DNA of 64,000 nt from an uncultured archaeon (GCA_963799775.1 CAWCYD010000003.1:1344001-1408000); one strand, 5' to 3'. Positions 4,986-62,920 are shown, numbered from the stretch's first letter. The notes: generated from the letters alone by a model not told the origin. Made by a program: numbers and translations.

Positions 4986-5021
4986 GGATTCTCTTAAGAG
5001 TTTAAGTGGGCCGGAAGGGAT
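4986..5021. repeat. attL-like site: arm GGATTCTCTTAA plus core GTGGGCCGGAAGGGAT
   Basis: Core is the tRNA-Ile 3' end; core recurs at 48186, 50715, 60434 and 62881 together with the inverted arm. Confidence 0.7.
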
Positions 5022-5106
5022 TCGAACCCTTGACCTCTCGATTATCAGTCGAGTGCTCTAGCCAAGCTACCCGTCGGGATAATCCACGACTCTGAGCTAC
5101 CGGCCC
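5007..5106 (-). tRNA. tRNA-Ile(GAT) with ~25-nt non-canonical intron at about position 15/16 (5067..5091)
   Basis: Spliced form GGGCCGGTAGCTCAG/CTTGGCTAGAGCACTCGACTGATAATCGAGAGGTCAAGGGTTCGAATCCCTTCCGGCCCA folds as a 75-nt cloverleaf. Confidence 0.9.
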
Positions 5107-5194
5107 ACCGTTCCTCAGGTGCAAGACTAACTCTCTATAAGCGTAAACATCTGAATTTCGCAGGCGGGCGGCAGAGCGAACCGGGGTGGTCCGA

Positions 5195-48185: not shown

Positions 48186-48219
48186 CGGAAGGGATGCAAT
48201 TAATTATTTAAGAGAATCC
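48186..48219. repeat. att-like site A
   Basis: CGGAAGGGATGCAATTAATTATTTAAGAGAATCC. Confidence 0.85.
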
Positions 48220-48222
48220 GCT

Positions 48223-49077
48223 CTACGAGCGCACATTGAAGTGTAATATCACAGCTTGTCCCCATTCGTCGGCAACGGCGATTGTGTAAACGCCGGCGAC
48301 AAAGGCAGTCACAGTAGGTGTAAGCTCGCTCTGTTGTCGGCCATAATCGATGAACGGAGGTTGTTGAATGGAGGTATTCGTTAGCGGGTTAAATCCTCCA
48401 ACACGAAGGGAATTGTTCAGAAGATCCCAGTATCCCCCAGTGGAGAAACTGTTGGCAATTTCGTACGAACCCAAGGACGTACCATTTGTAACACCAGACA
48501 TAAGACTAGCTTGTGAGCTATTTTGACCGAAGCTCAGTTGATTTACGTCCTGGACTTCATGGCAATTGACGCGCGGAATGTAGATATCGGCAGCATTCGT
48601 AATGTTACCCATAACGAAGTTTCCCTTCAACACGACAACCTCGGCAGCAGTCGTAAAGTTCTCAGGCGCATAGGGATGCGTGCTAACGTATGAAGGGTTT
48701 GAGACGTATGCATTGGTGTAGAAACAGTCCGGCCACATGGCGAGCGGAATCCCTTGGAAAAGCCAGTTATCCGATGTTGAAATTGTGTTGAGCTGAAGGT
48801 GAGTGTTGAAGAGGGACACATTGGCCTCCAGAAATTGTCCCTCAACCAGTTCTGTTGCATTGATGGACAAAGACAACTGAATTCCCTCTGAATTGATCGT
48901 AGATGATGTCGCGCTTGAATGAATTCCTGAGGAAGGCTGCGACATGCTCGTTGAGTCTACCAACCTGTTTGGTGCTGGGAGTTTGTTGAGCTCAACCGCA
49001 GTAACGCCTACGACTATAATGGCAATAATGACCCCTGCTAATATCGAGTGGAAACGTTTTGGCATCATCGAGAGCAC
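48223..49077 (-). CDS. DEWG-family membrane-anchored protein
   Basis: TM, S/T linker, LSLSINAT..GQ, FVAGVYTIAVADEWGQAVILHF. Confidence 0.85.
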   Translation of the reverse strand: MLSMMPKRFHSILAGVIIAIIVVGVTAVELNKLPAPNRLVDSTSMSQPSSGIHSSATSSTINSEGIQLSLSINATELVEGQFLEANVSLFNTHLQLNTISTSDNWLFQGIPLAMWPDCFYTNAYVSNPSYVSTHPYAPENFTTAAEVVVLKGNFVMGNITNAADIYIPRVNCHEVQDVNQLSFGQNSSQASLMSGVTNGTSLGSYEIANSFSTGGYWDLLNNSLRVGGFNPLTNTSIQQPPFIDYGRQQSELTPTVTAFVAGVYTIAVADEWGQAVILHFNVRS

Positions 49078-49199
49078 TTCAAAGGGGGTCGCTCACTGTT
49101 ATCGTTAGTCTCTTGAATATGCTTGACTCCCAATTCCACATTGCGAGTTGATGAGTCAAGTCCTTTCTGCACCTCAGACTCTGGCACTCATGCTCTTTG

Positions 49200-50363
49200 T
49201 TATTCTCCCTGTGAGGTCTCGTACAGTTCGGTGAAATCACCGCCGGACGGGACACTGGGGCATACGTTCCAATAGTAGGTACTGCCTTGGCACGAGTAAG
49301 TAGATGTCGATTGGTTCATGACATCGATATAGGCATAGCCACTTCCGATGCTGTACTCATTATCAGAAGTGTCCTCGTAAAGTCCACTGAATACAGATAG
49401 CTCGCTGAATTGGGGCAGGCCGTAGTAATAGCCGCCACTTGCGTATGAGGGGCGCTCTCCCATGAAATCCGAATAGTGAGCAACTCCCAATCCATAGCTG
49501 CTCGACGAATCGCCTCCGCACGTTTGTTGAGAGGCGTAGTCGTAAATTGAGGCTTCATACTCATTGTCACCAATAGGGTTGACTTGGGCGGAGACATGGT
49601 CGCCTTCGGAAACGTCGTAACAGAGAGTTGGAGTGCCAGGATAGAATTCATACCACATTTGATAGTAGCCATAGGTGTAATCTGAGCACTCATCTTGGCA
49701 ATAGGAATCGGTGCCAGCCTGAGCTATGTATCCGGCATGATACGCTGCAGCGTCAGTCTCGCCGACCCAGAAGCTGAACTCACACTCATAATCGTAGTCA
49801 GGACTATCGCACAGGTTATAACCCGGACTTCCGCCCGAATATCCGGGCCCTTCGATTTCGGGGACATACCAATCTGCTGAATTGAAGGAAAATCCATGCG
49901 CCTCGAAGTATTCGTACCCGACGTAATTTTCGCTGTTTTCTGTCGTATGCATTGAGCCGTGATAAATAAAGGTGTTAAGAACGGTAGTTGCTGCTGGGTT
50001 CTCAATCATTTCAAGGGTATATTCTGATCCATTCTCGGCCCTGAGTGTATAAGCGACCCCTACATTCTGCAACGACACGACGCAGTTCGAATCCCAATGA
50101 CCGAGGAAAAAGATACTATTGAATGAGATGCTATAAATTGCCGCTGCATAAGATGCAACAACAGGGGATGCAGTGGTATTTGCGAGCTTCTGGTCGATTG
50201 ACGCTAGAACCTCTTGATTGCCCTGACTTAGGGCAGCGGTAGTGCAATTGGATGCCGAAGACGGCGTAGCGTTCAGTGATGGGATTCTTGAGACCATCAA
50301 AAGACCGAGAACTACAAGAATGAGAGCCGCACCGAAATTAGTCTTAGCCGCCTGCCTGAACAA
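49200..50363 (-). CDS. Secreted G1 (eqolisin-like) glutamic peptidase with prodomain
   Basis: NYVGY, WYVP, SFWVG, IAQAGT (Q), WYEFYP, GD.V, FMGERP (E), LPQF. Confidence 0.8.
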   Translation of the reverse strand: MFRQAAKTNFGAALILVVLGLLMVSRIPSLNATPSSASNCTTAALSQGNQEVLASIDQKLANTTASPVVASYAAAIYSISFNSIFFLGHWDSNCVVSLQNVGVAYTLRAENGSEYTLEMIENPAATTVLNTFIYHGSMHTTENSENYVGYEYFEAHGFSFNSADWYVPEIEGPGYSGGSPGYNLCDSPDYDYECEFSFWVGETDAAAYHAGYIAQAGTDSYCQDECSDYTYGYYQMWYEFYPGTPTLCYDVSEGDHVSAQVNPIGDNEYEASIYDYASQQTCGGDSSSSYGLGVAHYSDFMGERPSYASGGYYYGLPQFSELSVFSGLYEDTSDNEYSIGSGYAYIDVMNQSTSTYSCQGSTYYWNVCPSVPSGGDFTELYETSQGE

Positions 50364-50714
50364 TTCTCTTCGGCGTTCTCACGATTAGAGATCTATAAAT
50401 TCGCAATGAAGCCGCGTTACGTAGGTATCGTCTAGCCAACCAGTAGAAATAGAAGATGCATCTTCCCGCTGCGCACGTCTGAAAGCTGGCCCATGCCTGA
50501 TTTAGCCGGTTGACTTGGGCTCTGCTTTGAGATTCGTCGTCATCTTCAGTAACCTCTATTTCGTTTTGCGCAATATCTCCACATCCCGCAGGCCGGACTG
50601 CACTGTAGCTGGAATTGTTCCCCCCTTGTGAGTCTGCTTCAGCTTGTGAAGCCTTGCAGATCGAGCCTCGCCCTAGAGGCCTCCCTCGTCCGCAGTTCCT
50701 ATGATAGCAGTAGG

Positions 50715-50746
50715 GGGCCGGAAGGGATGCAATTAATTATTTGAGA
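50715..50746. repeat. att-like site B
   Basis: GGGCCGGAAGGGATGCAATTAATTATTTGAGA. Confidence 0.85.
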
Positions 50747-51039
50747 CTTGAGCATAATTCTCGCCTGACATCATAGCCAATTCTGGTTGAGATGGCTTGC
50801 TAAGGGTCTCCTATCTCATGAGATTCATTGGTCAATGGCTCCCAAGAGTAGGACACTTCCTAGGAGGATGTTGCTCTCCGAGTCCTTCCTTATTGGGATT
50901 CTACGTCTAATCGAATTGATTCCTTGGCCAACAATACCCGCCAAGAAGAAGAGAGGCAGACGTATGTCTACCCGCATATCGTCATGCTCAGGTGCTTTAT
51001 AGTCAGGATCTGGATGAGGATTCCGAGCGACAATGCGCT

Positions 51040-51493
51040 CCATTCGTTCATGGTTCCACTATCGGCGGATTTCATTACGGCGAACGTTGCTGACAGCAAG
51101 ACATACGGCAGGTCACCGCGTCACTTCGCGGCGTCAGGTACGTCGATGGGGACGAAAGGTACGACGTAGACGAACTCTACGAGCTCTCGAGGCATAGAGG
51201 ATTCGACCTGCCCCATAGCGAGGTATGAGAACACGCATCCACACAGGGTCGAGCTCGTGTTCTTCTACGAGTCAGAGCTCGGACAGCTTGTCTATCCGTG
51301 GAGGACCAAATCCGTCGAGCCATGGATAGAGCAGATCAAGGACGTCTTTGGCATCGACCCGCTCCCCGTGAGAAGATTCGACAAAACGAAGACATTCGTC
51401 CTCTTGTCGGTTCTGCTGTACCAGCACATGGTCTGCCACAATCATATCAGAGGGAGACCATTGAGAGCTCTCAAGCACATGCTTGGAAGCTGA
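51040..51493 (+). pseudogene. DDE transposase remnant (IS4/IS5-like)
   Basis: Y..R..SVEPWIEQIKDVF (YREK-like) C-terminus; upstream fragmented. Confidence 0.6.
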
Positions 51494-51752
51494 ACCATCC
51501 TAATTGGATAAATTATGCCCACGTCTCAATAAGATGATCCCAATGAAAAGCTAGGTTAACATCCGTTGTAGGCCCGCTAACTGCGAGGGTTCAAACCCTT
51601 ATGCTCGAATGCGATGAAAGGTCAATCAAAGGTAGCCTGGTCTGGATCTGCGCACGGACCATGCACTTCGAGGGGGCGCACAACTGATTGGTAAGCTATT
51701 GCAGCAATCCGATTTTTTCTAGCTTAAATCCAACTTGAAACCGGCGTGGCTA

Positions 51753-52550
51753 TCAAGTGACTTGGAAATGCAGAATCACGGCTCGACCCCACTCGTCGCA
51801 TACTGCCACCGTGTATACTCCAGGAACGAAGGGAGTAGCAACAGGAGGTTCGATTGAAGGGGTATAACGCACGTATGCAATATATCCCATAATAGAGGAC
51901 GCATTCCAAGATCCGTCGGTGACATAGTAATTCGCCAGTCTGATTGGACCCAAAGTCTCGTTCGTTGGTGGCGGTGCAAGGCCATTCACGAGGCCCGTGA
52001 GGTTCGCAATAGAACTCGATGGTTGAAACACTACGTGATCTATCACCCCGTTGCCTTCCTCACAACTGAGCGTTGCGTGGAACGAGTTCGTTATGCTCGA
52101 AATATTGTCAAGGGTATAGTCTCCCTTGACCACGTCTGCGTAGACGGGCGCAGCAAAGATATTCTTCGAAGGGGTGGCCGTTCCAAAGCAATCTCCCCAT
52201 ACTGCGAATGAGACACCGCCGAATGGCCATTCCATTGCAGTGGGAATGGTATTTACAACAGGCAAAGTGTTGAATAGAGAGATGTTGAGTTCCAACGACT
52301 GCCCGACGGTCAACTGAGTGGCGTTAATCGAAAGGGTCAATTGAAGGCCACTTGGATTGGTCGCCGATTTTGTATCCTCCAACGCGCTCGAGAAATTCGT
52401 AGATGTAATTTGACTCGTTGAAGACTCTGATTTTGAAGATGACGGACTAGTTGCTGTTGGCGGAGAGTAGTCTCCCTTCAGTTTGACTACAAGTGATGTG
52501 ATGATGAGCACAACAAGTATTCCAACCGCAATTTCGCGCGAATACTTCAC
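51753..52550 (-). CDS. DEWG-family membrane-anchored protein
   Basis: GLQLTLSINATQLTVGQ, FVPGVYTVAVCDEWGRAVILHF. Confidence 0.85.
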   Translation of the reverse strand: MKYSREIAVGILVVLIITSLVVKLKGDYSPPTATSPSSSKSESSTSQITSTNFSSALEDTKSATNPSGLQLTLSINATQLTVGQSLELNISLFNTLPVVNTIPTAMEWPFGGVSFAVWGDCFGTATPSKNIFAAPVYADVVKGDYTLDNISSITNSFHATLSCEEGNGVIDHVVFQPSSSIANLTGLVNGLAPPPTNETLGPIRLANYYVTDGSWNASSIMGYIAYVRYTPSIEPPVATPFVPGVYTVAVCDEWGRAVILHFQVT

Positions 52551-52614
52551 CGTACTCCACCAACAAACCCTTTCGAGAAGCAGGGACTTGTATTGCTACT
52601 TCTTACTGAACGTT

Positions 52615-53819
52615 TCAATAGCCATAGTCGTTCTCGTACGTCAATGTGAAGTCGCCGCTTGAGTCCACGCTGCTCGGGCAGACGTTCATATAATACGGGC
52701 TGCCACTTCCTCCACTACAGGACACTGTTTGGCTCTGGTCCAAGTCGATGTAGTCGAAGTAGTTGGGGCTATTAGTGATTGTGTAACAGTATTCCTCCCA
52801 ACTACAATAGTAACCTCCCGTCACACTAATCTGGCTGAAATCTGGGATCCCATACGAAGTGGAGGCCTCGCTTGACCCTACTCCAGGGACACTCAGCCTC
52901 GAATTTGGCGTAGTATGCTTCACCCATGGCAAAATTGCTCGGCTCGTAGCCGGTGCAGCCCTGTAGTGTCGTAGCGTCATAGATGCTTGCTTCGTAGTAT
53001 TCGCTGTCATACGTACTTTCGGTAACGTAGGCTTCAATTGTGTTGCCTGAGCCAATGTAATCACAAAGGTTGTAGTATTGAGTAGGGTAGAGGTCTTCCC
53101 AGAACTGATACCACATGACGTAGTAGTGACTGGAGCATGACCCATAGCAGTAAGAATCCGTGCCCGTCTGATCAAGGTATGCCCCGGTTTGCTCCCCGTA
53201 CGTGCTTTCGCCAACCCACATTGAAACCAGGCATGTAGAGTTCTCATAGTTGCTGCAATCGGCACCACCGCTACTTACCGACGGCACATTCCAGTCGGCC
53301 CCGTCATAATACATGCCATAACCATACGAATCCTTGTACTCTACCCCCGACCACATGCTGTTTGGATAAGAGGAATGAGCGATTTGTGGGTAGACACTAG
53401 CCCCCAGAACCGTCGTAAGGCTTGGATTCAAGGTTACTTCAAGCACGTAGGTGCCCCTTTGTCGCCATGAGGTTGTAGTCAACGCTGACATTCTCAATGG
53501 AAATGCTGCATGAAGAGTCCCAGGTTGTCCGATAGAATATGCTGTCGAAAGAACTACTGCTGTAGTTTATTGCGTACGCGGCCAGAACTGGGGCGGCCAG
53601 CTGTTTGGCTACATCTTGATTGATGTTGACCGCTGCCTGTTGAGTACTCTCCGAGAGTACTTTGGCAGAACAGGTGGATGCAGAGGTGGACCCACCGCTT
53701 GTCGCAGTTGCCAATACGGGTTCAAATCTGGCCGCGATGAGAACTGCGAAAAGACAAAGAACCGTCGAAATTTCCAGCCAGGAGTTTCCACCGATTGTTC
53801 CGCTACGTGAGAAAATCAC
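52615..53819 (-). CDS. G1 glutamic peptidase (two frameshifts)
   Basis: WSGVEY, SMWVG, LDQTGT, FEAECP, IPDF across three ORFs. Confidence 0.75.
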
Positions 53820-53949
53820 TCTAGTCCCTCGGTTACAGGTAGCGCTCCTCCGACCTACGATTTTGACAATGCCTGGACCAGACGTTCATGATTGCGGTAA
53901 TGCTACGGATTGGTGTTCCATATATTCATTATGTAACATTCTTCTGGGT

Positions 53950-54350
53950 GTTTTATGTCACGACCTGTAGGACGCTCGTCCCATGGCGTCCTGTGAGTGT
54001 CTGGTAGTCGACTGATTGGTATCGTCTGATTTAGTTGTAGCATTGGATGAAGCCGTCCAGTGTGTTGTACCTCCATGGCTCTACGGAACATGTTACGAAG
54101 AACCTCTCGATCTTCCTGGTCGTCCTAGGCTTGCCTATACCCGACATGATGTGGCTGATTCCAGCTCGTTGAGCTTCCTGTCGAAAGATGACTCCCCTCT
54201 CGTCACCCAGTAAAACTGGGTCCCTGGTCTGTGAGTATCTTCGATGTTCCACACATCCTGATGCAATCGAGAAGGCAGTCGATGGTGTTCTCGGTGATCG
54301 CGTTCTCGTACATCAGAAGCCTTCGGGCCGACTTCCATAGACACCTCGAG
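53950..54350 (-). pseudogene. rve/IS481-like transposase remnant
   Basis: GISHI..GKPRTTRKIERFF..YN fragments. Confidence 0.6.
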
Positions 54351-54633
54351 AACAGGGTATATCTTGAAACACGCTGTGTTTATGATAAATAGCTGATTTC
54401 ATCGTGTCCTTTCCCTCCCGCCTTCTCGCGAGCCCATAGCAGCCCAACGGATATTCCCCCAGTCTAGGACTAGTCAATGTCTGTTCGGAGGGCGCGCAAT
54501 CGACGAATTTTTTCCCTAGATGACCCTACTCACTTGGGCGGCGTCCGCAACATCGCATCTACGGCGTGATCACGAGGTCAGTGCTGGGGCCCTAAAGTTC
54601 GCTATCTACTGAAATTGAGGCCTGCATCATTCT

Positions 54634-55097
54634 TCATTGGCTAGGAGGGGCGTCTGGGCTAATGATAGGCGAGGAGATCAGGAAAGCACCTACAACCCGC
54701 GTGGCATTCACGTCCTCCTCTACGCCAATGGGTTGATTGCCCACGTTGAACGCAAGATTGAGTTCTTGCTCCACGATCGTGCCATTCGAACGGCTCTTAT
54801 AGGCAATCTGATATCCATTGTAGCACACTGACCCTCCTGTGGCAAGGCTCTGGAACTGTGATGAACTTATTGCCAGCTGGATGCCTTTGGGATGACGCTG
54901 GTTGAAATTACGGCGATGAGATTGCCTGGACAGTTCGCGACGGTGGCAACTGGAAAGCTGGGTGCTGAAGAGTTGGCAGAAACTCTTGAAAGGCCAAGAA
55001 CCCTAAGCTTGCCAGAAGCAAGAACAGCATCAGCGTTACCATTGGCAGGAGTTTCGACCGCGGAAACATGGGAACCTTTTCAGAATCGCTTCTCATA
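54634..55097 (-). pseudogene. Fragmented membrane-anchored protein resembling the G1 prodomain
   Basis: TM segment, then YQIAY..ELNLAFNV..IGVEEDVNATRVV, weakly like prodomain ends. Confidence 0.35.
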
Positions 55098-55181
55098 AAT
55101 CCTTGGCTACAAAGTTCAACGAGGAAAAATTGCCGTAATCTACGTTTCCCCATACTCACCATACGGCCCGATCCTGTTGGA

Positions 55182-55520
55182 TCAAACACTTTGGTCGTAG
55201 TATTCAGTGAAGGTGTTGGAACTCGTGCTGTAATCTGGATAGGCTTCTGTGTATTCGTCCAACGCCATGTGATAGGTGTTGAATGAGCCGTCGGAGAACA
55301 GGGTGGCATCACCATCATTAGTCGTTGTGCTAAATGTAAACGCTTCCCGTGATTCCGAAGTCGTAATTGGAACCATAGCTGAATCCAGGCATGCCGTAGT
55401 AAGCGGTTACATCGGCCATCTGGGGCGCATAATACGATATTCCTTGTTCTTGACAGGGTTTGAGACGACCACGTTTGCGCCAAGGTTACTCCCAGGGCTT
55501 TCAGTCTCCCCGACGCGGGC
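55182..55520 (-). pseudogene. C-terminal remnant of a G1-like peptidase
   Basis: AYPDYSTSSNTFTEYYDQS parallels VCPS..SGGDFTELYETS. Confidence 0.4.
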
Positions 55521-55606
55521 TTCAGGAGTTCTGTGCCGCAATCCAATGTGTTACGGATTCCAACTCCCGCTTTGAACCCGATGCTGTCTTGGACGCGAAG
55601 AGTTAA

Positions 55607-55648
55607 GTGCGGTCGCCGGTTCTTAGACGCAATTGAGTTCAAATCCAC
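55607..55648. repeat. 42-bp direct repeat (with 56526..56567; degenerate copy 48114..48151)
   Basis: GTGCGGTCGCCGGTTCTTARACGCAATTGRGTTCAAATCCAC, 40/42 identical. Confidence 0.88.
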
Positions 55649-55739
55649 GGGTACAAACCGTCAGTTACGGAAGCGGACAACGTTAGCGGACGAAGGCCGA
55701 AGCCAGTTCAGATTTTCTTCTAGCAAGTGCACTGCGTCT

Positions 55740-56141
55740 CTAAGTCTGATTCAAGGCCTCAGACACAGATAGGATTCTGATCTTCTTGAACCTCTTCAGG
55801 CGAAGGAGAGCCCTGTCGCCTGTGACAATGAAATCTGCATGTCCATCGTAAGCTGTGTTGAGAATCATGTTGTCGGAAGGATCACTCTCAATCGCTCGGA
55901 AATCTGACTCGACTCTCACCATGTCGCCAGACTGCATTAGTGCAAGAACGACTCTTTGAATCTCGTCTTCGCCGGTCTTGAATTTCGGTCTGCGCAGCAC
56001 AGTTTCGGTTTCTTTCAGGATGAATTCAGATATCACAAGAGAGAATCGGTTCTCTATTCCGCGGTCAAGCAATTCTCTAGGTTTGCCCTTAGAGATTGCA
56101 GCACTAACAATTACGTTGGTGTCGAGGACAACCCGATACAT
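55740..56141 (-). CDS. PIN-domain toxin
   Basis: VVLDTNV, DPSDNMIL, IVTGD..LL. Confidence 0.9.
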   Translation of the reverse strand: MYRVVLDTNVIVSAAISKGKPRELLDRGIENRFSLVISEFILKETETVLRRPKFKTGEDEIQRVVLALMQSGDMVRVESDFRAIESDPSDNMILNTAYDGHADFIVTGDRALLRLKRFKKIRILSVSEALNQT

Positions 56142-56145
56142 CCAA

Positions 56146-56427
56146 TCACTTGATTCTGTGCTTTTCTCTCCGAATTGTGGCTACCTCTTCTTGGACTTGT
56201 CTCTCTGAGAGTTTCAATCCCTTCTTATCCATCATCTTGAATATATCCTCCCACTCCCTCCTGACATCAGGGAGTTCGAGCTTCTTCATCACAACGGTAT
56301 CGCCTCTTCCAAAGACCAGGAATTTCGTTCCAGGCTTTAGCCTCAATGCGTTTCTTAGAGATTGGGGAATTACAACCTGTCCTTTCCCACTGATTGTGGT
56401 AATCTGCAGTTCTTCTTCCTGGGCCAT
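56146..56427 (-). CDS. AbrB/MazE-type antitoxin
   Basis: ISGKGQVVIPQSLR..L.LKPG. Confidence 0.9.
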   Translation of the reverse strand: MAQEEELQITTISGKGQVVIPQSLRNALRLKPGTKFLVFGRGDTVVMKKLELPDVRREWEDIFKMMDKKGLKLSERQVQEEVATIRREKHRIK

Positions 56428-56525
56428 ACTTACTCGTATGAGCGCTTTACTTTCTTACTATTAATAGGTTTTCAGTCACCGTGTTCCAATGTCCTGATGA
56501 AGAGTGCGGTCTAGGAATTTGAACT

Positions 56526-56567
56526 GTGCGGTCGCCGGTTCTTAAACGCAATTGGGTTCAAATCCAC
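56526..56567. repeat. 42-bp direct repeat, second copy
   Basis: Matches 55607..55648. Confidence 0.88.
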
Positions 56568-56818
56568 ATAGTCGAACATTAAGCGAATCCTTCTGAATAA
56601 CCACTCCATCACAATTCAAAAAGCCCCCAACTGCCGAGCACAACTGAGCCCCTTCGTGTGCGGATTAGAAACAGAGCCGCCTGTTTAGCCCAACATACGC
56701 TCAGGTCAGATTTGGGTTAGGTGACTGGGCGTAAGGTCACCAAAGGCATTTTCGATGTGCCTGAATAGGATTTGGGTTCTTGCGAGTGAATTTGCGTGGG
56801 TTCTGACTTCGTTTTTCG

Positions 56819-57694
56819 CTAGCCTGTCACTTCGAAATGCAGGATCACGGCCTGCCCCCAGCAATCTGCGACGGCTATCGTGTATGTCCCAGGAACGAAG
56901 GATGTCGCGACAGGACTCTGGTTACTATTGAGCTCACTCGGGTTGCTATAGACCTCAGGCGGTTCCAACAGCTGCGAATTGGCGCCCAGATCCCAATAAC
57001 CATTGGTCGTGAAACTCGTCGAAAGAGAATATGGACCGGAAGTTTGGTTCACCGGTTCCTTGGCCAGTCCACAGCAATAGCTGACTAGATCGACTCGCGA
57101 ACTGCTTGGCAGGAAGATCACGTGGTTTACGGGACTAGGTTCGTGGCACGTGCCTCCGGAAACCGTGCTGTTTGCCACCCGCGATATATTCGCTATCGTA
57201 TAGAAGCCTTGGAGAACCACCGCCTGCGCTGCCCCCACGAGGCTATCGTTCACCGGATTACAATCCGGCCAGAAGCTTATCGCGATGCCTTGCAGCGCCC
57301 AATCGTCGCTCGCAGCAATGCTGTTGGCTTGGGGCAGAGTATTGTACAGCGAGACGTTGGCCCAAATGGACTGTCCTACCGTCAGTCGGGTAGCGTTGAT
57401 AGAGAGCGAGAGTTCGAGTCCATTCACGTTCACAGTCGAATTGAAGTCCGCCACTAGTGGACCAGCGGCGGAACTCCGACTGAAGGATTGTATGGTATTG
57501 ATGCTTGCGCTCGCGTTAGAAGAAGTTGCGCTAACGGCTTTGGTCGTGGTGTTCGCAAGGCTCCCCAGCGAACTGGTGGATTGAGTGGTGACGCCATTTG
57601 ATGGGTAGAGGGTACTGATTTCGACCGCCACCAACGTCGTAGCGAGCACTACAGCTATGACTCCCGCAATGATCCGATGCGAATATTCAGACAT
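56819..57694 (-). CDS. DEWG-family membrane-anchored protein
   Basis: GLELSLSINATRLTVGQ, FVPGTYTIAVADCWGQAVILHF. Confidence 0.85.
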   Translation of the reverse strand: MSEYSHRIIAGVIAVVLATTLVAVEISTLYPSNGVTTQSTSSLGSLANTTTKAVSATSSNASASINTIQSFSRSSAAGPLVADFNSTVNVNGLELSLSINATRLTVGQSIWANVSLYNTLPQANSIAASDDWALQGIAISFWPDCNPVNDSLVGAAQAVVLQGFYTIANISRVANSTVSGGTCHEPSPVNHVIFLPSSSRVDLVSYCCGLAKEPVNQTSGPYSLSTSFTTNGYWDLGANSQLLEPPEVYSNPSELNSNQSPVATSFVPGTYTIAVADCWGQAVILHFEVTG

Positions 57695-57846
57695 CGCAAC
57701 TACGTAGAATGGCCGGAACTATATTGCTACGCATTAGCAAATTGATTGCTAGTAGATATATCAAAATCTTATGTAATAATGGCAAATTCTTGTATCACCT
57801 TCAAAGCGCCTGAGCGGATCTATCAGTTCAGCGTCCATGATTTTTG

Positions 57847-58260
57847 CTAGATTCTTCGGCTCGACACGGTGAGGGATTCATAAACAGAAACAAGTAGTGA
57901 TGAAGTAATCGTAAACAGAGAGAAGAGGTATGACGGAGTACCGAACACGGATGGTCGAAGAAGCGTCAGAAGCAAAGTCAACGATGTGGCCAAAAATGCT
58001 GAAAAGGCCGCCCACAATGGAATAACGGTTCTTCTTATTCTTATCATGTTCTCGAAGACAACGCTGTTAGCGACGTATCCATCGCCCACTTCATTGACCA
58101 ACCCCATTCGGACCAGTTTTTGGAGATGATATTCGGCGACCGATGATGAACTCATCTTCAATTCTCGTTGAATATCCGACAAACGGGTTGGACCTCGTCT
58201 ATAGACGAACCGATAGACCCCGAGAGAAGTTCCCGTCAAGCCGTCAGCCCGTTGCTTCAA
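57847..58260 (-). CDS. wHTH regulator with two C-terminal TM helices
   Basis: DIQRELKMSSSSVAEYHLQKL; hydrophobic C-terminus. Confidence 0.8.
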   Translation of the reverse strand: MKQRADGLTGTSLGVYRFVYRRGPTRLSDIQRELKMSSSSVAEYHLQKLVRMGLVNEVGDGYVANSVVFENMIRIRRTVIPLWAAFSAFLATSLTLLLTLLRPSVFGTPSYLFSLFTITSSLLVSVYESLTVSSRRI

Positions 58261-58329
58261 GCGAATCGGAATCTAATATCGATACCGAAGAAGTGACTTT
58301 TAGCAGTTTCCTATGAAGGCGTCCATCTG

Positions 58330-59590
58330 TCAGATGCCATCGGACGTCTCCCAGGTCTCATCGAAGGCCCCACTGCTTACCTCGGTAGGGCAAACGTTGA
58401 CTGGTAGGGAGCTGAGGGTATTGCAGGAGTACGTATAGTTGTTGTTGTTTGTGGTTGCATCGATGTAGTCAAAGATGGATGATGATGTTGATGAAACGGG
58501 GCTATTGTCGATTTCGATCGCGTTCCCCCCACTGTAATAGTATCCATCGAATACCTCCATACCTGAGCCAGAGCCACCTGTACCATAAAAGTCAGGCAGG
58601 CCGTACTCACCCGGGTTTGCTTCACCCATGAAGTCCGCATAGGTTGCCGTGTTCATGTAACCGCTGGACGAGTTTGCTGTACAGCCCTGAGTCGGGGTTA
58701 CAGAGTAGTCGTAGACGCTGTCTTCCCAGTAGTAGTACTCGCCATCATTCAGCTGAGTCACTTCACCGCCCATCTCGTCACCGGGGCTCACATTGTGGCA
58801 GGAGACTGCACCGTCAGGAAGGAACTCGGTCCAATCGTTATAAGTGTAAGGAGATGAACAAGAACTGTTGCACTTGGAGTCCGTACCGGTCTGGGGCAAG
58901 TTGTCGTCATTCGCGCCAGTTGCGTCCTCAGTCCCAACCCAGAATGAAAACCTACAACCATTGCCCGAACAAATTGCTGGGACCTCCAGAGCCGCCGATG
59001 TAAGGCACGTACCAAGATGAAGAAGCCTCGGTGATTCCACCGCTTTCGTAGTATTCGTAACCCGACCAAGCGACGTGGTCAGTTGTGTCATCGTTCCCGT
59101 GCACGTAATGGTATTCAGGAAGGTACAATTGAACACTGATGATGCTGGTCAGGGAAGGAGACTCTGTGATCTCAAGCGTGTAAGCCGTTGTTCCATTTGC
59201 CGCCTTCAGATCGTAGGCGACAACAACGCTCTCGATTGAGACAACGCAATTCGAGGTCCAGGTCGTATGGTACACGATGCTGTTGAATAGAGGCGTGTAT
59301 TCCATAGCGTATTGTGCCAAAGTCTGAGCCGCCGCATCCTTGGCCGCCACCTGGCTTATCGATGTCTCGGCGGCTCGAGTCCCCTTCGCGAGATCATTAA
59401 CGGAACATGTCGGGGCTGAAAGACCCGAAGTCGTATCGGCAAAGACTGGCACTAATCTTCCCAGTACTAACAGTGCAAGAACTGCCAGTATTATGGAGGC
59501 GCTTAAGCTAGGCTTCACCGCAAGAACTTTCCGATTTGAGAACTCCATCTCTATCGCGTTCGTCTCTAACATAGCTTTTCTATATAACAC
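58330..59590 (-). CDS. G1 glutamic peptidase (frameshift ~58980)
   Basis: WSGYEY, SFWVG, LPQTGT, FMGEANP, LPDF. Confidence 0.78.
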
Positions 59591-59710
59591 AGTAAGAACC
59601 TATGGTCCAGGACCATAGGTCCGCCTCATTCTTCTAGAACGCTATTCTTTTGTCAGCTCTCAAAATTAACAGAGGATTCAAGCTTGGATTCTGCAAAACT
59701 GTGGCGATTT

Positions 59711-59992
59711 TCAGCCCTGGCTTTCCGCTCGAGTCGAGCCCTGTTTGTACCACTTTAGCCACCTCAATCCCTTTTTGCTTATTGAGTATTTCAGGAACCT
59801 CCCGGATCTCTTTGCGGCGATCAGCCCTTGAGCTTCCATCGAGTCCAGGTAGCGTCTTATTCGCTCTGTGTTTAGGTTGGTTACCCTCATCAACCTTGTG
59901 CGAGTGGCGTCCTCAAAAACCAATTCATCTAGGATAGCAGCCTGTATGTCGTAGTCGTTCCTTCTCCTTCGGGGACGGTCCTCCGAATTCAG
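59711..59992 (-). CDS. Small winged-helix regulator
   Basis: RRNDYDI.AAIL..TRTRLM..TNLN..YL..GLI; start uncertain. Confidence 0.7.
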   Translation of the reverse strand: MNSEDRPRRRRNDYDIQAAILDELVFEDATRTRLMRVTNLNTERIRRYLDSMEAQGLIAAKRSGRFLKYSISKKGLRWLKWYKQGSTRAESQG

Positions 59993-60420
59993 GAAGTATC
60001 AACCGGGGGGCCATAGTTAAGAATACTCATATATTTATGAGTTGTCGATTGTGAATTCGCTATTTGCATTCTTTTGCAACAATATCATAGGAAATAGAAC
60101 TCAAACTTGAGGCTGCTCGCTCCAAGATGACCTGGGATAGGCAACAAGAAGTCCAAAAATTCCGAAGATGCGGATCAGTGGCTCGCAGCCAGGCTTCATG
60201 CGCCACCGCACTGTAGCATGGAACTCTTCTCCAAGGATGCAGCAAATCACTATAAGCCCTGCCGGAGGACTGCCTCTTCTTTGCACCGCTCATTGGAGTT
60301 TATCCCAAAAACAGTCTTTCTTGCTCAGAACAGCCCAATTCTCCCCCTTTCTTCCCCTCCCTTGCGAGCCCATAGCTGCGAATTGCGCTTGCGATTTAGT
60401 GGCGCTCGCAGGCGATCTTC

Positions 60421-60473
60421 GGGATTCTCCTAGGTGGGCTGGAAGGGATGCAATTAATTATTTAGGCGAATCC
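60421..60473. repeat. att-like site C
   Basis: GGGATTCTC..GTGGGCTGGAAGGGATGCAATTAATTATTTAGGCGAATCC. Confidence 0.85.
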
Positions 60474-60590
60474 TCTTGCGTAGTAAACATTTTGCCCCTG
60501 TTCATTTCCGGCGCTTGAGGAACCGCTCTGCTTTCGCCGTCAGGGCATGGAATGTGAGGGAGCAAAGTGGAAATACTGGTTGCCGTACTC

Positions 60591-61403
60591 TCAGCCGGTG
60601 GCCTTGACTTCGAAATGAAGCACGACCGCTTGACCCCATTCGTCGCACACACCAACTGTATAGACACCTGGCTCGAAGGACGAATAACGAGGAACATTTG
60701 TTGAGTTGACATAGACGGCTTCGTATGGTACTCTCGACAAAGATGGTGATGATTCGTTTGCCTGGGCGAGAAGAGCTGTCGTATTCCAAACGCCTCCGAC
60801 TGCAAAGTGAGATGAAATGTGAAAAGGCCCTGCGGTTAATGGTCCTTGGATGTCAGCATCAAGATAGAGGCTGACCTCACTGTCTTGCGGTTCGAATTTG
60901 TAGGTTAGGTCGTTCACCAATCCATAATCTATAGGTGGGCAGGAGGGGAGCTTTGGGTTCCCTGGCGTTGTTGCAAGCTGTGCTACTGAGAGGTTACCAG
61001 AGACGATGATCACCTCGATTGGAGATGGCCAGAATGCATAGGTGCCTCTGCACAATGGATCCCATATGGCAACTGGAACCCCGTGAAATAGCCAGTTCGA
61101 ATTCGCTGAAATGTTAGCGTCAGTGGGTAATGTGTTGAAGAGCGATAGTGACACATTTAACTCCTGTCCGACTTGGAATTTCGTTGAATTTAGAGATGCC
61201 TCGAGTCTTAGACCATTCGCTAGACTAGTCGAGTCGTTGACAGTCGATTCGGCAGCGAAGGATGATGTTGGGGTGAGTGAAGAAGTTGTTTGCGGCCAAA
61301 ATGGGCCAACTCGGAAAATCAAGATTGCCGAAACGAGGATAGTTATGACGAAGAGCGCTGTCAAGGAAATGAATATGCCCTTGTGTCGAAAAGTTACTCG
61401 CAT
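60591..61403 (-). CDS. DEWG-family membrane-anchored protein
   Basis: GLRLEASLNST..VGQ, FEPGVYTVGVCDEWGQAVVLHF. Confidence 0.85.
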   Translation of the reverse strand: MRVTFRHKGIFISLTALFVITILVSAILIFRVGPFWPQTTSSLTPTSSFAAESTVNDSTSLANGLRLEASLNSTKFQVGQELNVSLSLFNTLPTDANISANSNWLFHGVPVAIWDPLCRGTYAFWPSPIEVIIVSGNLSVAQLATTPGNPKLPSCPPIDYGLVNDLTYKFEPQDSEVSLYLDADIQGPLTAGPFHISSHFAVGGVWNTTALLAQANESSPSLSRVPYEAVYVNSTNVPRYSSFEPGVYTVGVCDEWGQAVVLHFEVKATG

Positions 61404-61441
61404 GGATCAGGACAAGCGCCCCAAACTTGTTCTCACTGGTG

Positions 61442-62638
61442 CTAGTATCCATCAGTAGCTTCGAGGGTTTCCGTAAAACTCTGGCTCGAAACGCTGCTAG
61501 GGCAAACGTTGACATGAATTGTGGTTCCCAAGCATGAAGTGGTTGTTGAGGTTAGGTCTGTGTAGTCGGCCGTATTCCAGTTATTGTCAATGCCGTAATA
61601 GTTGTTTGCCGAGTCATAGTAATAGCCATCCCAAGGGCTCAAGCCGTAGAAACCTGGCAGTGCTGTATTGCCCGGAGTTTCAGCCATGAATTGTGCGTAG
61701 TATGAGCCCCACGAAGAAAGGTCGAAACCCGATGGTGAGTAGCTAGAACAGCCTATCGAAAGAGTATAGTCATCCACAGTGACGTAGTATTCTGTACTGG
61801 ATGCCTTCTCGACTTCGCCGGCCACTTCGTCGCCGTATTGGGTGCCGCCACACACGTTCTGGTTAGCTGTTGGGTACCATTCATACCAATAGTTGGCCTT
61901 GTAGTTTGATGTGCAGGTAAATTTGCAGTAAGAATCAGTTCCAGTCTGCGCCAAATAACCGGCACCATTACAACCTGAAAGTGACTGATTTCCTCCCTGG
62001 CAATATGTTTCGCCAACCCAAAACGAGATGTCGCACTCGTAGTTATGAGAACTTTGGTCGCAGTTGTTCGTAGAGCCGTCGTATCCAGCACCATCGACAT
62101 ATGGTACGTCCCAGTATGCTCCGTTTTGTTCCACTTGATCGCCATTGGTGGGGGAGTACTCATACCCACTCCAGCCGTATTTGCCGGTAGGATTGAGGTT
62201 CCCGCTGTGAGTGAGACTCAAGTACACCATGCTGTTCAGGACACTCGCGAGGTTTGGACTGACTGCGACTTCGAGGGTGTATGATGATCCATTGAGTGCC
62301 CTCATGTCAAAGTCCACACTTACATCTTTCAGAGAAAGATTGCAGTTCGAGTTCCAAGAATAGCTGTAGAAGGTGCTATCATAATGGATCCCGGTATACA
62401 TAGAGTTGTATCCTGCCAAGACAGGAATGGCCGTTGCGTTAGCGGTTGCTTCGTTCAATGTTCCGTGTATCGCTTGAACCTGTTGGTCCAGCACACTTGG
62501 CGCACAAGTGGAGCTTGACAGTCCATTGGCTCCAGCCGGGAGTCCTCGGGACAAGAGAAGAAGAGCGAGAATGCCGAAGATGATGACAGCGTTCAAGTGA
62601 CGCCCTGTGCCGAGCACAGTGCGATTTGAGAAGAGCAA
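61442..62638 (-). CDS. Secreted G1 glutamic peptidase
   Basis: WSGYEY, WDVP, SFWVG, LAQTGT, WYEWYP, FMAETP. Confidence 0.8.
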   Translation of the reverse strand: MLFSNRTVLGTGRHLNAVIIFGILALLLLSRGLPAGANGLSSSTCAPSVLDQQVQAIHGTLNEATANATAIPVLAGYNSMYTGIHYDSTFYSYSWNSNCNLSLKDVSVDFDMRALNGSSYTLEVAVSPNLASVLNSMVYLSLTHSGNLNPTGKYGWSGYEYSPTNGDQVEQNGAYWDVPYVDGAGYDGSTNNCDQSSHNYECDISFWVGETYCQGGNQSLSGCNGAGYLAQTGTDSYCKFTCTSNYKANYWYEWYPTANQNVCGGTQYGDEVAGEVEKASSTEYYVTVDDYTLSIGCSSYSPSGFDLSSWGSYYAQFMAETPGNTALPGFYGLSPWDGYYYDSANNYYGIDNNWNTADYTDLTSTTTSCLGTTIHVNVCPSSVSSQSFTETLEATDGY

Positions 62639-62874
62639 ACGTTCGGAGGATTCTTCTGGCTTGCCTAAATTTCTTATGAAGAAAGTCTATGTAGGCTTCT
62701 TCCGAGACGACAAAAATGGACGAGAAACTGGTTTCGCCCATTACCGTTGGCGCGGGTATACTGGTAGATTGACTGGATGCCCCAAAGGTATAGCCTCTAA
62801 TGATTCGGAATTCGTCATAGAAGCCCAATTTCCCCTTCTCTCCCCCTCCTCGCGAGCCAAGGTCCGAAGGATTA

Positions 62875-62920
62875 GTTTAAGTGGGCCGGAAGGTATGCAA
62901 TTAATGTTTTAAGAGAATCC
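62875..62920. repeat. att-like site D (attP-like, both arms)
   Basis: GTTTAAGTGGGCCGGAAGGTATGCAATTAATGTTTTAAGAGAATCC; first 22 nt match 5000..5021 with 1 mismatch. Confidence 0.88.

What the first reader, a model, noticed from the sequence alone, without database searches (positions are those of the whole stretch)
48186..62920. Integron-like cassette array delimited by tRNA-derived att sites
Seen: four same-orientation sites (48186, 50715, 60421, 62875) with consensus GTGGGCCGGAAGGGAT-GCAATTAATTAT-TTAAGAGAATCC. The core equals the tRNA-Ile 3' end (5006..5021). The distal arm TTAAGAGAATCC is the exact reverse complement of GGATTCTCTTAA between that tRNA and the integrase (4986..4997). Sites C and D also keep parts of that left arm, so they look like attP junctions. 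A-B and C-D each enclose exactly one peptidase+DEWG pair (~2.5 kb) with no integrase, and site A ends 3 bp from a stop codon. Inference: minimal non-autonomous cassettes stacked by the tRNA-targeting integrase acting in trans, an archaeal integron analogue using tRNA att sites rather than attC.
Basis: partly seen in the sequence, partly recalled or inferred. Interest (0 to 1): 0.88.

Follow-up and report, generated by a model that had tools for sequence, protein, structure and literature searches.

The report
Stacked integrase-less modules between tRNA-derived sites
A soil archaeon carries a 25-kb island next to a tRNA gene in which short tRNA-derived recombination sites separate small gene modules that have no integrase of their own, most likely the leftovers of repeated insertions of one family of mobile elements rather than an integron.

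Summary
Four same-orientation ~40-bp sites (A 48180, B 50713, C 60434, D 62881) carry the tRNA-Ile 3' end plus a conserved arm. None is expected by chance. They match the left end of an intact 7-kb element at tRNA-Ile.

The array runs about 9 kb past the window to a second, related integrase and a tRNA-Met. The B-C gap holds two more DEWG/peptidase pairs (peptidase genes frameshifted), a PIN/antitoxin pair and three sites built on the tRNA-Met 3' end. So this is a ~25-kb tRNA-Met-anchored island of at least seven modules from one Nitrososphaerota element family with two att specificities.

Cargo copies are only 30-40% identical and similarity stops at the 40-bp sites, so tandem duplication is excluded. 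Metagenome contigs show the family is active: the same flank carries different elements, and the same element sits at different sites.

Best reading (0.6): serial site-specific insertion followed by loss of integrase and replication genes, as in bacterial CIMEs or tycheposon islands. Trans-mobilised cassettes remain possible (0.2). Integron membership fails three of three tested features: no attC-like fold, no platform integrase, two-gene cassettes.

The parts
3665..4954 (-). Integrase Int(I), 429 aa, of the intact ~7-kb reference element E0 (C3:1342049-1349021; its left end lies 1.95 kb left of the window)
   Evidence: Motifs GLRPES / YVLR / MGH / ARY are visible in the translation. There are 1605 homologues, named 'site-specific integrase' in Nitrososphaerota records. 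The AlphaFold2 model's 22 Foldseek hits at E<=1e-3 are all tyrosine recombinases, with XerA on top. No Pfam, NCBIfam or PDB sequence hit.
4986..5021 (+). P arm (GGATTCTCTTAAGAGTTTAA) plus 16-nt core. This is the right junction (P-O-B') of E0 at the 3' end of tRNA-Ile.
5006..5109 (-). tRNA-Ile(GAT) with a D-loop intron. It is the integration target of the I-type elements.
   Evidence: ARAGORN and Rfam. The 5' end is from my reading.
48124..48152 (+). M0: degenerate tRNA-Met-type arm (24 of 29 nt), 27 nt left of site A. Probable left border of the island.
48180..48219 (+). Site A: attL-like. The left part of the core is not tRNA-like (TCGAGAC); the rest is CGGAAGGGAT plus a perfect P' arm.
48223..49077 (-). 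DEWG1: membrane-anchored beta-sandwich protein of unknown function
49200..50363 (-). Pep1: secreted glutamic (A4/G1) peptidase homologue
   Evidence: Pfam Peptidase_A4. The family profile hits aspergillopepsin II at E 3.8e-8, with Q and E of the dyad aligned.
50713..50750 (+). Site B: core (GGGGGCCGGAAGGGAT) plus a variant P' arm (TTTGAGACTTGAGCATAATTCTC). The same variant arm occurs in G017 and in two metagenome contigs.
51753..52550 (-). DEWG2
52615..53819 (-). Pep2, broken into three reading-frame pieces
54415..54442 (-). Element-specific motif (CTGCTATGGGCTCGCGAGAAGG...) upstream of the cargo pair
   Evidence: Seven copies in the genome, all inside elements of this family
55607..55648 (+). 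M1: tRNA-Met 3' core (GTGCGGTCGCCGG) plus M-type arm
55740..56427 (-). PIN-domain toxin (55740-56141) plus MazE/AbrB-type antitoxin (56146-56427). This 0.9-kb module lies between M1 and M2.
56526..56590 (+). M2: tRNA-Met core plus M-type arm, ending in TTAAGCGAATCC. It is preceded by a degenerate tRNA-Met 3' fragment.
56819..57694 (-). DEWG3
57847..58260 (-). Winged-helix regulator
58330..59590 (-). Pep3, broken into two pieces
60351..60378 (-). Element-specific motif, 55 nt left of the core of site C
60421..60473 (+). Site C: P-arm remnant plus core (1 mismatch) plus P' arm. An attP-like tandem junction.
60591..61403 (-). DEWG4
61442..62638 (-). Pep4
62866..62920 (+). Site D: P-arm remnant plus core (1 mismatch, inside the presumed crossover stretch) plus P' arm. 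The arm variant is the one seen in genome G022.
63424..64000 (-). First gene of the last modules (223 aa, runs to 64095). Beyond the window follow Pep5, two further motifs, a 641-aa ATPase, DnaJ, Int(M) (C3:1415562-1416839) and tRNA-Met (C3:1416884-1416977).

Best explanation
The four sites are junctions left by a family of tyrosine-recombinase integrative elements of Nitrososphaerota.

The element and its site:
- A complete element reads [core + P' arm] - two secreted-protein genes - conserved ~245-nt region - ATPase - DnaJ - integrase - [P arm + core].
- It inserts into the 3' end of a tRNA gene.
- One integrase type (I) uses the tRNA-Ile/Ala-type end GTGGGCCGGAAGGGAT. A related type (M; 56% identical overall, about 88% in the last 130 residues) uses the tRNA-Met end.

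The island:
- The region from 48.1 kb to the tRNA-Met 8.9 kb beyond the window is an integration hot spot.
- At least seven such elements, from different lineages, were stacked there by successive site-specific insertions. Insertions went into the tRNA, into att sites of resident elements and into secondary sites.
- All but the tRNA-proximal one then lost their integrase and replication genes.
- What remains are cargo modules (site - DEWG - peptidase - motif) separated by I-type or M-type junctions, plus a toxin-antitoxin module.
- These modules are the archaeal counterpart of bacterial cis-mobilisable elements produced by 'accretion and decay'.

Shown versus inferred:
- Shown: the sites, their tRNA origin, the anchoring integrase and tRNA-Met, the divergence of the cargo, activity and secondary-site use of the family in nature, and integrase loss in a relative.
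- Inferred: the order of events and how I-type junctions came to lie in a tRNA-Met-anchored island. A possible route is insertion of I-type elements, or of a multi-element circle, into I-type sites carried by resident M-type elements.
For: 1. Reference element. The same core+P' site lies at C3:1342049, so the integrase-bearing element at tRNA-Ile is a clean 7-kb unit flanked by direct repeats. A 3.6-kb sister (X, integrase 89% identical) sits in a degenerate, non-tRNA site.

2. Anchor. Right of the window lie ATPase, DnaJ, a 425-aa integrase and tRNA-Met on the same strand. tRNA-Met-derived sites occur at 55607 and 56526 (0 expected by chance), with a degenerate one at 48124.

3. Independent acquisitions. 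The four DEWG proteins are 31-37% identical and the Pep proteins 36-40%. Nucleotide similarity between junctions is <=42 bp. D carries the P' variant of genome G022 and B the variant of G017.

4. Decay.
- Pep2 and Pep3 are frameshifted.
- The P arms of C and D have 8-9-nt internal deletions.
- An integrase-less module with an M-type site but no second site stands alone at C3:96192-99136.
- In genome G015 the tRNA-proximal element keeps 72 bp of integrase leader plus P arm but has lost the gene.
- In G028 the integrase is truncated.

5. Tandem insertion is real in this family. G017 has a perfect P-O-P' junction. G015 has O-P' / P-O-P'' / P-O-tRNA in a row.

6. The family is active and uses secondary sites.
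- In metagenome contigs the same left flank carries different P' arms (L070 against L072 and L085; L066 against L076).
- The same element end is joined to three different left flanks, two with non-tRNA core halves (L067; L068, L080 and L081; L077). This places the crossover in GGAAGGGAT.

7. Literature.
- Arrays formed by re-use of one site by tyrosine-recombinase elements, and integrase loss after integration, are described for archaea (PMC6563490 and PMC8371274, passages read).
- The accretion/decay route to CIMEs is described for bacteria (PMC5704250, passages).
- Islands with scattered partial tRNAs are described for Prochlorococcus (bioRxiv 10.1101/2020.12.28.424599, passages).
Against: 1. 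I-type (tRNA-Ile) junctions have no business in a simple tRNA-Met array. No P-O-B' end for the I-type series was found right of D (core <=2 mismatches, P arm <=5 mismatches). The history therefore needs extra, unobserved steps.

2. A and B have no P arm at all. Simple serial insertion predicts P-O-P' at every internal junction.

3. In modules 4 and 5 the motif abuts the next junction (55 and about 10 nt), so the integrase would have to be lost between nearly the same two landmarks twice. The same [site-cargo-motif-site] pattern recurs in a metagenome contig (L074). Small integrase-less modules between sites occur in L064, L086, G008 and G023. That regularity fits non-autonomous cassettes as well as it fits selection on promoter plus cargo.

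4. A, B and C keep the O-P' word 23 of 23 identical to the active element's, which is more than neutral decay predicts.

5. No empty site or alternative arrangement in a close relative could be found. The genus is too divergent for synteny.
Confidence: 0.6

Rival explanations
1. The modules are non-autonomous cassettes. Each [core+P' site - two genes - upstream motif] unit would be a minimal mobile element without an integrase. The I-type integrases of element E0 (3665-4954) or X would excise it as a circle and re-insert it in trans at any resident core, so that cassettes stack. Functionally this is an integron- or CIME-like gene-capture system built on tRNA-derived att sites.
For: - Recurrent architecture: motif directly next to the following junction in modules 4 and 5, and in metagenome contig L074.
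- A and B lack P arms, as expected if the cassette side of the site is just the cargo end.
- 6 of 47 places outside this genome have two or more same-orientation O-P' sites, with 0.9-3.3-kb integrase-less intervals in L086, L033, L029 and L074.
- A 2-kb ABC-transporter module lies between O-P' and a tRNA-like O-B' in L064.
- The O-P' word in A, B and C is identical to that of the resident intact element.
- Two intact I-type integrases are present in the genome.
- The family uses secondary sites.
Against: - No circle, empty site or relocated copy of any cassette was seen.
- DEWG1 has no relative above 46% identity among the 22 found. Pep1-like genes were found in 1 of 96 other genomes of the family.
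- C and D differ in the presumed crossover stretch (AGGGAT against AGGTAT), and their P arms carry deletions.
- Two of four peptidase genes in the array are broken.
- A lone module at C3:96-99 kb has only one site.
- In G015 integrase loss by deletion is directly visible.
Confidence: 0.2
2. The array was assembled elsewhere and arrived in one piece. Tandem I-type elements at a tRNA-Ile/Ala site would have excised together as a multi-element circle (or recombined with an M-type element) and then integrated at tRNA-Met or into a resident element. The internal junctions would be fossils carried along.
For: - Composite sites (M-type site followed within 63-114 nt by an I-type O-P') occur both here (M0+A) and in G017.
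- The G017 element combines an I-type integrase (94% identical) with an M-like ATPase (84%).
- The integrase 3' part and DnaJ are conserved between types (79% DNA identity over 1358 bp), which gives substrates for module exchange. Such exchange in tandem arrays is described in PMC8371274 (passage).
Against: M1 and M2 lie between the I-type junctions, which needs more than one event anyway. No second copy of the composite is known.
Confidence: 0.12
3. Tandem duplication of one ancestral attR-plus-cargo unit, or an assembly artefact created by the 40-bp repeats.
For: Same orientation and similar module length (about 2.5 kb) of A-B and C-D.
Against: - Cargo proteins are 30-40% identical, and no nucleotide similarity exists outside the <=42-bp sites.
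- Different P' arm variants are present.
- Logan contigs of one soil run match the stretch at >=99% in 29 of 38 laid pieces, in 25 of 30 bins. None was shown to bridge a junction.
Confidence: 0.03

Closest known systems
Cis-mobilisable elements (CIMEs) and tandem accretion at ICESt1/ICESt3-type sites in Streptococcus (described in PMC5704250, passages read)
   Same: Integrase-less modules that keep att sites on both sides. They lie in tandem with related integrase-bearing elements at a tRNA or gene 3' end. They arise by integration, decay, then integration of a further element into the att site.
   Different: Here the host is an archaeon and there is no conjugation module. Two att specificities (tRNA-Ile-type and tRNA-Met-type) are mixed in one island. 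There are at least seven modules. The nearest integrase of matching specificity is 43 kb away. Mobilisation is untested.
Tycheposon-built genomic islands of Prochlorococcus (bioRxiv 10.1101/2020.12.28.424599, passages read)
   Same: Tyrosine-recombinase elements target tRNA genes, and later arrivals push earlier ones into the island. Partial tRNAs and degenerated elements are scattered through the island. The cargo is adaptive rather than viral.
   Different: The integrase family is unrelated and the host is from another domain. Here the remnants are strikingly regular two-gene modules with a family-specific upstream motif.
Cryptic integrated elements of Thaumarchaeota (Krupovic et al. 2019, PMC6563490, passages read)
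   Same: Same phylum. Integration is by a tyrosine recombinase into tRNA genes, including intron-bearing ones. The paper notes that tyrosine-recombinase elements are known to form arrays by re-using one integration site.
   Different: In the passages I read, the tandem thaumarchaeal example is a casposon pair. 'DnaJ' does not occur in the main text (0 occurrences). Supplementary tables could not be opened, so overlap with listed elements cannot be excluded.
Integrons, including those reported in Archaea (10.1101/2022.02.06.479319 / PMC9668308, search listing only)
   Same: An ordered, co-oriented array of short gene modules, each ending in a recombination site for a tyrosine recombinase. A toxin-antitoxin module lies inside the array.
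   Different: - The sites are tRNA-derived duplex att sites, not folded attC.
- There is no attI/Pc platform.
- The integrases are element-borne and sit next to tRNAs.
- The cassettes hold two genes with their own upstream motif.

Membership tests
Integron | attC sites: imperfect inverted repeats that act as folded single strands | tested here: not met
   ssDNA folds of 71-nt windows around A, B, C and D give z-scores of -0.99, +0.84, +0.23 and -1.56 against shuffles. The sites are tRNA 3' end plus arm.
Integron | A stationary intI gene with adjacent attI (and Pc) at the head of the array | tested here: not met
   The integrase at the array's end sits between DnaJ and tRNA-Met as part of a complete element. 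Two further copies lie in other elements. Neither Int(I) nor Int(M) reaches any NCBIfam model, including integron integrase. The fold is a generic tyrosine recombinase.
Integron | Cassettes are mostly single, promoterless ORFs | tested here: not met
   The modules have two ORFs, or three in module 4, and a conserved upstream motif. That the motif is a promoter is my inference.
Integron | Cassettes excise as circles and re-insert | not testable with these tools
   Only low-depth Logan contigs were available.
tRNA-targeting tyrosine-recombinase integrative element | Encodes a tyrosine recombinase | tested here: met
   R..YxxR..H..Y pattern. All 22 Foldseek hits at E<=1e-3 are tyrosine recombinases.
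tRNA-targeting tyrosine-recombinase integrative element | Flanked by direct repeats of the tRNA 3' end, with the intact tRNA at the integrase end | tested here: met
   Met for E0 (C3:1342049 and 1349006) and for relatives L024, L027, L031 and L053.
tRNA-targeting tyrosine-recombinase integrative element | Presence/absence or alternative occupancy of the same site in populations | tested here: met
   L070 against L072 and L085, and L066 against L076, share a left flank but carry different elements. Shown for the family, not for this array.
CIME / tandem accretion | att sites retained on both sides of the module | tested here: met
   A/B, C/D and M1/M2. The P arms are absent (A, B) or damaged (C, D).
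CIME / tandem accretion | No recombinase or transfer genes inside | tested here: met
   tblastn with three integrases finds nothing between 48.1 and 71.5 kb.
CIME / tandem accretion | Lies in tandem with an element whose integrase recognises the same att | tested here: inconclusive
   The adjacent integrase is M-type, which matches M0-M2. The I-type integrases are 43 kb and 1.3 Mb away.
CIME / tandem accretion | Excised or mobilised by the helper integrase | not testable with these tools
   No raw reads were available.
Peptidase A4 / G1 (glutamic peptidases), for the cargo 'peptidase' | Sequence membership and the Gln/Glu catalytic dyad | tested here: met
   Pfam PF01828 scores 44.2 bits against a cut-off of 22.3 for Pep1 only; Pep4 has no hit. 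A 7-sequence profile hits aspergillopepsin II heavy chain at E 3.8e-8. The family's AQxGTD Gln and the invariant Glu (E303) fall on chain residues 24 and 110. That these two are the catalytic pair is recalled, not from a call.

The most novel reading that the evidence does not exclude
The integrase-less units [tRNA-derived core + P' arm - two genes - family motif] are a class of non-autonomous archaeal gene cassettes. Resident tRNA-targeting integrases move them in trans, into tRNAs, into att sites of other elements and into an internal pseudo-core of the conserved 245-nt region. That would make such islands a working gene-capture and shuffling platform: functionally an integron built from duplex tRNA att sites.
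Probability: 0.2. Interest if true: 0.75.

Novelty: new variant of a known kind. Interest (0 to 1): 0.45.

Why it matters
How archaea without known conjugation or abundant plasmids build variable genomic islands is poorly documented. This locus gives an unusually legible case.

- It shows one element family with a defined attP: a core flanked by inverted 12-mers.
- It has two tRNA specificities, three intact integrases and a 25-kb island of at least seven stacked modules.
- The cargo, secreted glutamic peptidases paired with a beta-sandwich membrane protein, is expanded in this genome (8 peptidase matches). It was found in only 1 of 96 other genomes of the family searched with Pep1.

Whether the integrase-less modules still move is directly testable with the sequences given here. 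If they do, this would be a cassette system of a new type. If they do not, it extends the bacterial 'accretion and decay' picture (CIMEs, tycheposon islands) to soil Nitrososphaerota.

Tried and rejected
**Tried without a useful result**

- Reads. Only three coded soil runs kept as Logan contigs were offered. One held 24% of the sampled words. Laid on 47000-64000 they gave short low-depth pieces. They also gave one joint, 55648 -> 48178 (1 contig, depth 3, shorter side 38 nt, letters between unknown). That joint could be a circle or tandem joint. It could equally be a strain whose M0 site is intact and aligns better to M1. I treat it as undecided. Parts without cover mean nothing.
- Complex of Pep1 (60-387) with DEWG1 (52-284): no support, score 0.00 in both runs. 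This is no evidence either way.
- DEWG fold. The AF2 model (pLDDT 77.9) is a beta-sandwich, but Foldseek against the PDB gave 0 hits at E<=1e-3. The Atlas lead to BsuPI proteinase inhibitors (score 0.86) is therefore unconfirmed.
- Empty site or synteny. The luciferase-like gene right of tRNA-Met has orthologues in 14 of 22 genus genomes. None of the 5 neighbourhoods I fetched contains the tRNA or other shared genes.
- Sequence-level recognition of the integrase: Pfam, PHROGs, NCBIfam and PDB by sequence and by profile all found nothing.
- Rfam on 47-64 kb at E<=0.1 found nothing, so there are no hidden tRNAs in the array.
- A viral-contig scan for the site found 0.
- The core-like word at 32278 has no arm and is probably chance. 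Among collection hits, L050 (a Nitrospirota contig) and L082 also lack the arm and look like chance matches.

**Considered and rejected**

- Tandem duplication was rejected (see rivals).
- A role for the sites as terminators was not pursued. There is no T-run on the sense strand, and the sites are conserved together with integrases across genomes.
- An extra degenerate I-type site near window-equivalent 65860, which I suspected by eye, is not supported by the profile search.

- Supplementary tables of PMC6563490, which list the elements and their att sites, could not be seen and might list related elements.

Full report
**1.
- The core GTGGGCCGGAAGGGAT is found on the + strand at 5006 (exact) and at 50713, 60434 and 62881 (one mismatch each). 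Shuffles give 0.07 matches.
- The core+arm word GGAAGGGATGCAATTAATTATTT is found at 48187, 50720 and 60441 (exact) and at 62888 (three mismatches). Shuffles give none.
- The core is the 3' end of a tRNA-Ile(GAT) on the - strand. From the sequence I read a D-loop intron, so the gene would span about 5006-5109.
- The distal arm TTAAGAGAATCC is the reverse complement of GGATTCTCTTAA at 4986-4997.
- C and D keep parts of that left arm.
- A lacks the left six bases of the core, B lacks the distal arm, and D is the most diverged.
- A profile made from 42 distinct sites of other genomes recovers exactly six sites in the 2.47-Mb genome. They are A, B, C, D, the left end of the tRNA-Ile element, and the end of a second element elsewhere.

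**2. What the site is.**
- The window is G000:C3:1344001-1408000.
- The same core+P' site lies 1951 bp left of the window (C3:1342049). The ORF at 3665-4954 therefore belongs to a clean 7-kb element, E0.
- E0 reads: [core-P'] two secreted proteins, a conserved non-coding region, a 124-aa ORF, a 513-aa ATPase, DnaJ, integrase, [P-core] tRNA-Ile.
- A 3.6-kb sister element, X (C3:47847-51460), has the same ends, an integrase 89% identical and only two cargo genes. Its target is a degenerate tRNA-like word.
- The attP is therefore P arm, core, P' arm, with 12-nt inverted repeats 8 and 12 nt from the core.
- The integrase has no Pfam, PHROGs, NCBIfam or PDB sequence hit. It does show the pattern GLRPES...YVLR...MGH...ARY. 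It has 1605 homologues, where named mostly 'site-specific integrase' of Nitrososphaerota/Thaumarchaeota.
- Its AlphaFold2 model (pLDDT 66.8; 70-93 in the catalytic part) matches only tyrosine recombinases at E<=1e-3: 22 hits, with archaeal XerA first.

**3. The array is larger than the finding and is anchored elsewhere.**
- Right of the window lie a 641-aa ATPase, a DnaJ (90-93% identical to E0's), a 425-aa integrase and a tRNA-Met. All are on the - strand, ending at C3:1416977.
- This integrase, Int(M), is 56% identical to Int(I). The similarity is concentrated in the last 130 residues.
- The 3' end of tRNA-Met (GTGCGGTCGCCGG), followed by a different arm, recurs at 55607 (M1) and 56526 (M2); none is expected by chance. 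A degenerate copy of the arm (24 of 29) lies at 48124, just left of A.
- The B-C interval holds two more DEWG/peptidase pairs with frameshifted peptidase genes, a winged-helix gene and, exactly between M1 and M2, a PIN toxin with a MazE/AbrB antitoxin.
- A 28-nt motif occurs seven times in the genome, always in these elements and always upstream of the cargo pair.

Module map:

| Module | Content |
|---|---|
| 1 | [M0+A] DEWG1, Pep1 |
| 2 | [B] DEWG2, Pep2 (broken), motif |
| 3 | [M1] toxin-antitoxin |
| 4 | [M2] DEWG3, wHTH, Pep3 (broken), motif |
| 5 | [C] DEWG4, Pep4, degenerate motif |
| 6 | [D] 223-aa gene, Pep5, motif |
| 7 | two ORFs, motif, ATPase, DnaJ, Int(M), tRNA-Met |

- Left of the island, at 40.7-43.7 kb, sits yet another element with an unrelated Pfam-positive integrase, a DnaJ and a STAND ATPase.

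**4. The cargo.**
- Pep proteins are glutamic (A4/G1) peptidase homologues with an N-terminal hydrophobic segment.
- DEWG proteins have an N-terminal helix, a Ser/Thr-rich linker and a beta-sandwich ending in the invariant ..D.W....H..V motif. No structural neighbour reaches significance.
- tblastn finds about 17 DEWG-like and 10 Pep-like loci in this genome.
- Of 20 DEWG-like gene ends examined, two have an I-type arm within 200 nt (those at A and C). One has an M-type site within 200 nt (at C3:99 kb).
- With Pep1 as query at E<=1e-20, 1 of 96 other genomes of the family has a match, against 8 matches here.
- DEWG1 has 22 relatives at E<=1e-5 in the large protein collection, the best at 46% identity.

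**5. Comparative evidence.**
- The I-type site (<=2 mismatches) is present in 10 of 60 relatives. All 10 are in the same family (10 of 36), usually once per genome.
- An exact 20-mer scan found 9 places in the species-representative genomes and 25 in metagenomes, each with a single exact match. Two of these look like chance.
- Typical loci are simple elements of 3.7-8.7 kb ending at tRNA-Ile (L024, L027, L031, L053).
- The family is active. Two pairs of metagenome contigs share the left flank but continue into different elements. One element end is joined to three different left flanks, two of which replace the left half of the core. This puts the crossover in GGAAGGGAT and documents secondary sites like that of A and of X.
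- Tandem insertion occurs. G017 has a perfect P-O-P' junction, and beside it a composite of an M-type site and a B-like I-type site. G015 has three junctions in a row.
- Integrase loss occurs. G015's tRNA-proximal element keeps 72 bp of leader and P arm but not the gene. G028's integrase is truncated.
- Integrase-less intervals between same-orientation sites are not unique to this genome. With a looser 19-mer (<=3 mismatches), 6 of 47 distinct places have two sites: L023, L028, L029, L033, L074 and L086. Most contigs are short, so this is a lower bound.
- L064 holds a 2-kb ABC-transporter module between O-P' and a tRNA-like O-B'.
- In L074 the joint lies exactly at a core-like word (GAGCCTGAAGGG) inside the conserved 245-nt region that all full elements carry. 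The integrase can therefore apparently also use that internal site.

**6. Mechanism.**
- The simplest account is the one established for bacterial islands. Elements of one family insert one after another into the same tRNA or into the att sites of residents. Older ones lose integrase and replication genes, and what selection keeps is the cargo with its upstream region.
- This fits the broken genes, the damaged P arms, the lone one-sided module at C3:96-99 kb and the visible integrase losses in relatives.
- It does not by itself explain I-type junctions inside a tRNA-Met island, the absence of P arms at A and B, or the repeated 'motif next to junction' pattern.
- I put 0.6 on accretion and decay, 0.2 on still-mobile cassettes, 0.12 on import of a pre-assembled composite, and 0.03 on duplication or artefact.

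**7. Comparison with known systems.**
- As a member of the integrons the array fails three of three tested features: folded attC, a platform integrase, and single promoterless ORFs.
- It works like CIME/ICE accretion (PMC5704250, passages).
- It also works like tycheposon islands with scattered partial tRNAs (bioRxiv 10.1101/2020.12.28.424599, passages).
- For archaea, re-use of one site by tyrosine-recombinase elements, tandem integration and integrase loss are mentioned in PMC6563490 and PMC8371274 (passages).
- My four literature searches listed no paper describing this element family, its DnaJ gene, mixed-specificity islands or integrase-less two-gene modules in Nitrososphaerota. That is a statement about those searches only, and supplements were closed.

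**8. Verdict.**
- The feature is real and well delimited.
- It is a new variant of a known kind, not an integron.
- It is of moderate interest, and it becomes high only if the modules prove mobile.

**9. Caveats.**
- The genome is a metagenome-type assembly, 81.7% complete.
- Junctions were not independently bridged by reads.
- The order of events is inferred.

Noticed in passing
C3:1343840-1344130 (straddles the window start, about -160..130); also L008:4110-4375, L009:5200-5480, L023:14610-14860, L028:12670-12950, L029:13725-13990: A ~245-nt conserved non-coding region lies between cargo and backbone in every full-length element. It is closed by an 18-bp stem (GCTCGCCCATAGCA...TGCTATGGGCTCGC). 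In 6 sequences, 10 of 61 predicted pairs show compensatory changes. It has no Rfam family. It could be an RNA, an origin or a recombination site.
   Followed up: partly
L074:6650-6920 (metagenome contig): A recombinant joint lies exactly at a core-like word (GAGCCTGAAGGG) inside that conserved region, fused to a normal P' arm. This suggests an internal secondary att site through which backbones could leave cargo behind or newcomers could insert.
   Followed up: partly
window 40721-43656: A separate element in the opposite orientation lies directly left of the island. It has a 351-aa Pfam-positive tyrosine recombinase with a zinc ribbon, a DnaJ-domain protein and a STAND/AAA ATPase. A PIN gene lies at 39977-40390. 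Its att sites were not determined.
   Followed up: no
window 3183-3653, 41788-42351; C3:1415144-1415551 and four more loci: J-domain (DnaJ) proteins are a recurrent gene of these integrative elements, directly downstream of the integrase. The word DnaJ does not occur in the main text of the 2019 thaumarchaeal mobilome paper.
   Followed up: no
C3:96192-99136: A stand-alone integrase-less module (motif, Pep-like, DEWG-like, M-type core+arm) lies far from any tRNA-Met or integrase and has only one att end.
   Followed up: partly
genome-wide: There is a lineage-specific expansion of glutamic-peptidase / DEWG gene pairs: about 10 and 17 loci here. Pep1-like genes were found in 1 of 96 other genomes of the family. 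Several pairs lie near tRNA genes (C3:1816-1818 kb, 1824-1826 kb) without recognisable I/M sites.
   Followed up: partly
window 5724-5798 (+) and C3:1740069-1740162: tRNA-Ala(TGC) and tRNA-Ala(CGC) share the I-type core with 1-2 mismatches. In genome G017 the I-type array appears to end at a tRNA-Ala(CGC), so the integrase may have several natural targets.
   Followed up: partly
window 56499-56525: Immediately left of M2 lies a degenerate copy of the tRNA-Met 3' part, including T-arm bases (GAGTGCGGTCTAGGAATTTGAAC). These bases are not part of the attP overlap. It may be a relic of an earlier tRNA-proximal junction.
   Followed up: no
L028:14390-15871 (G015): A 493-aa transposase-like ORF is inserted in the integrase-less tRNA-proximal element of a relative.
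   Followed up: no
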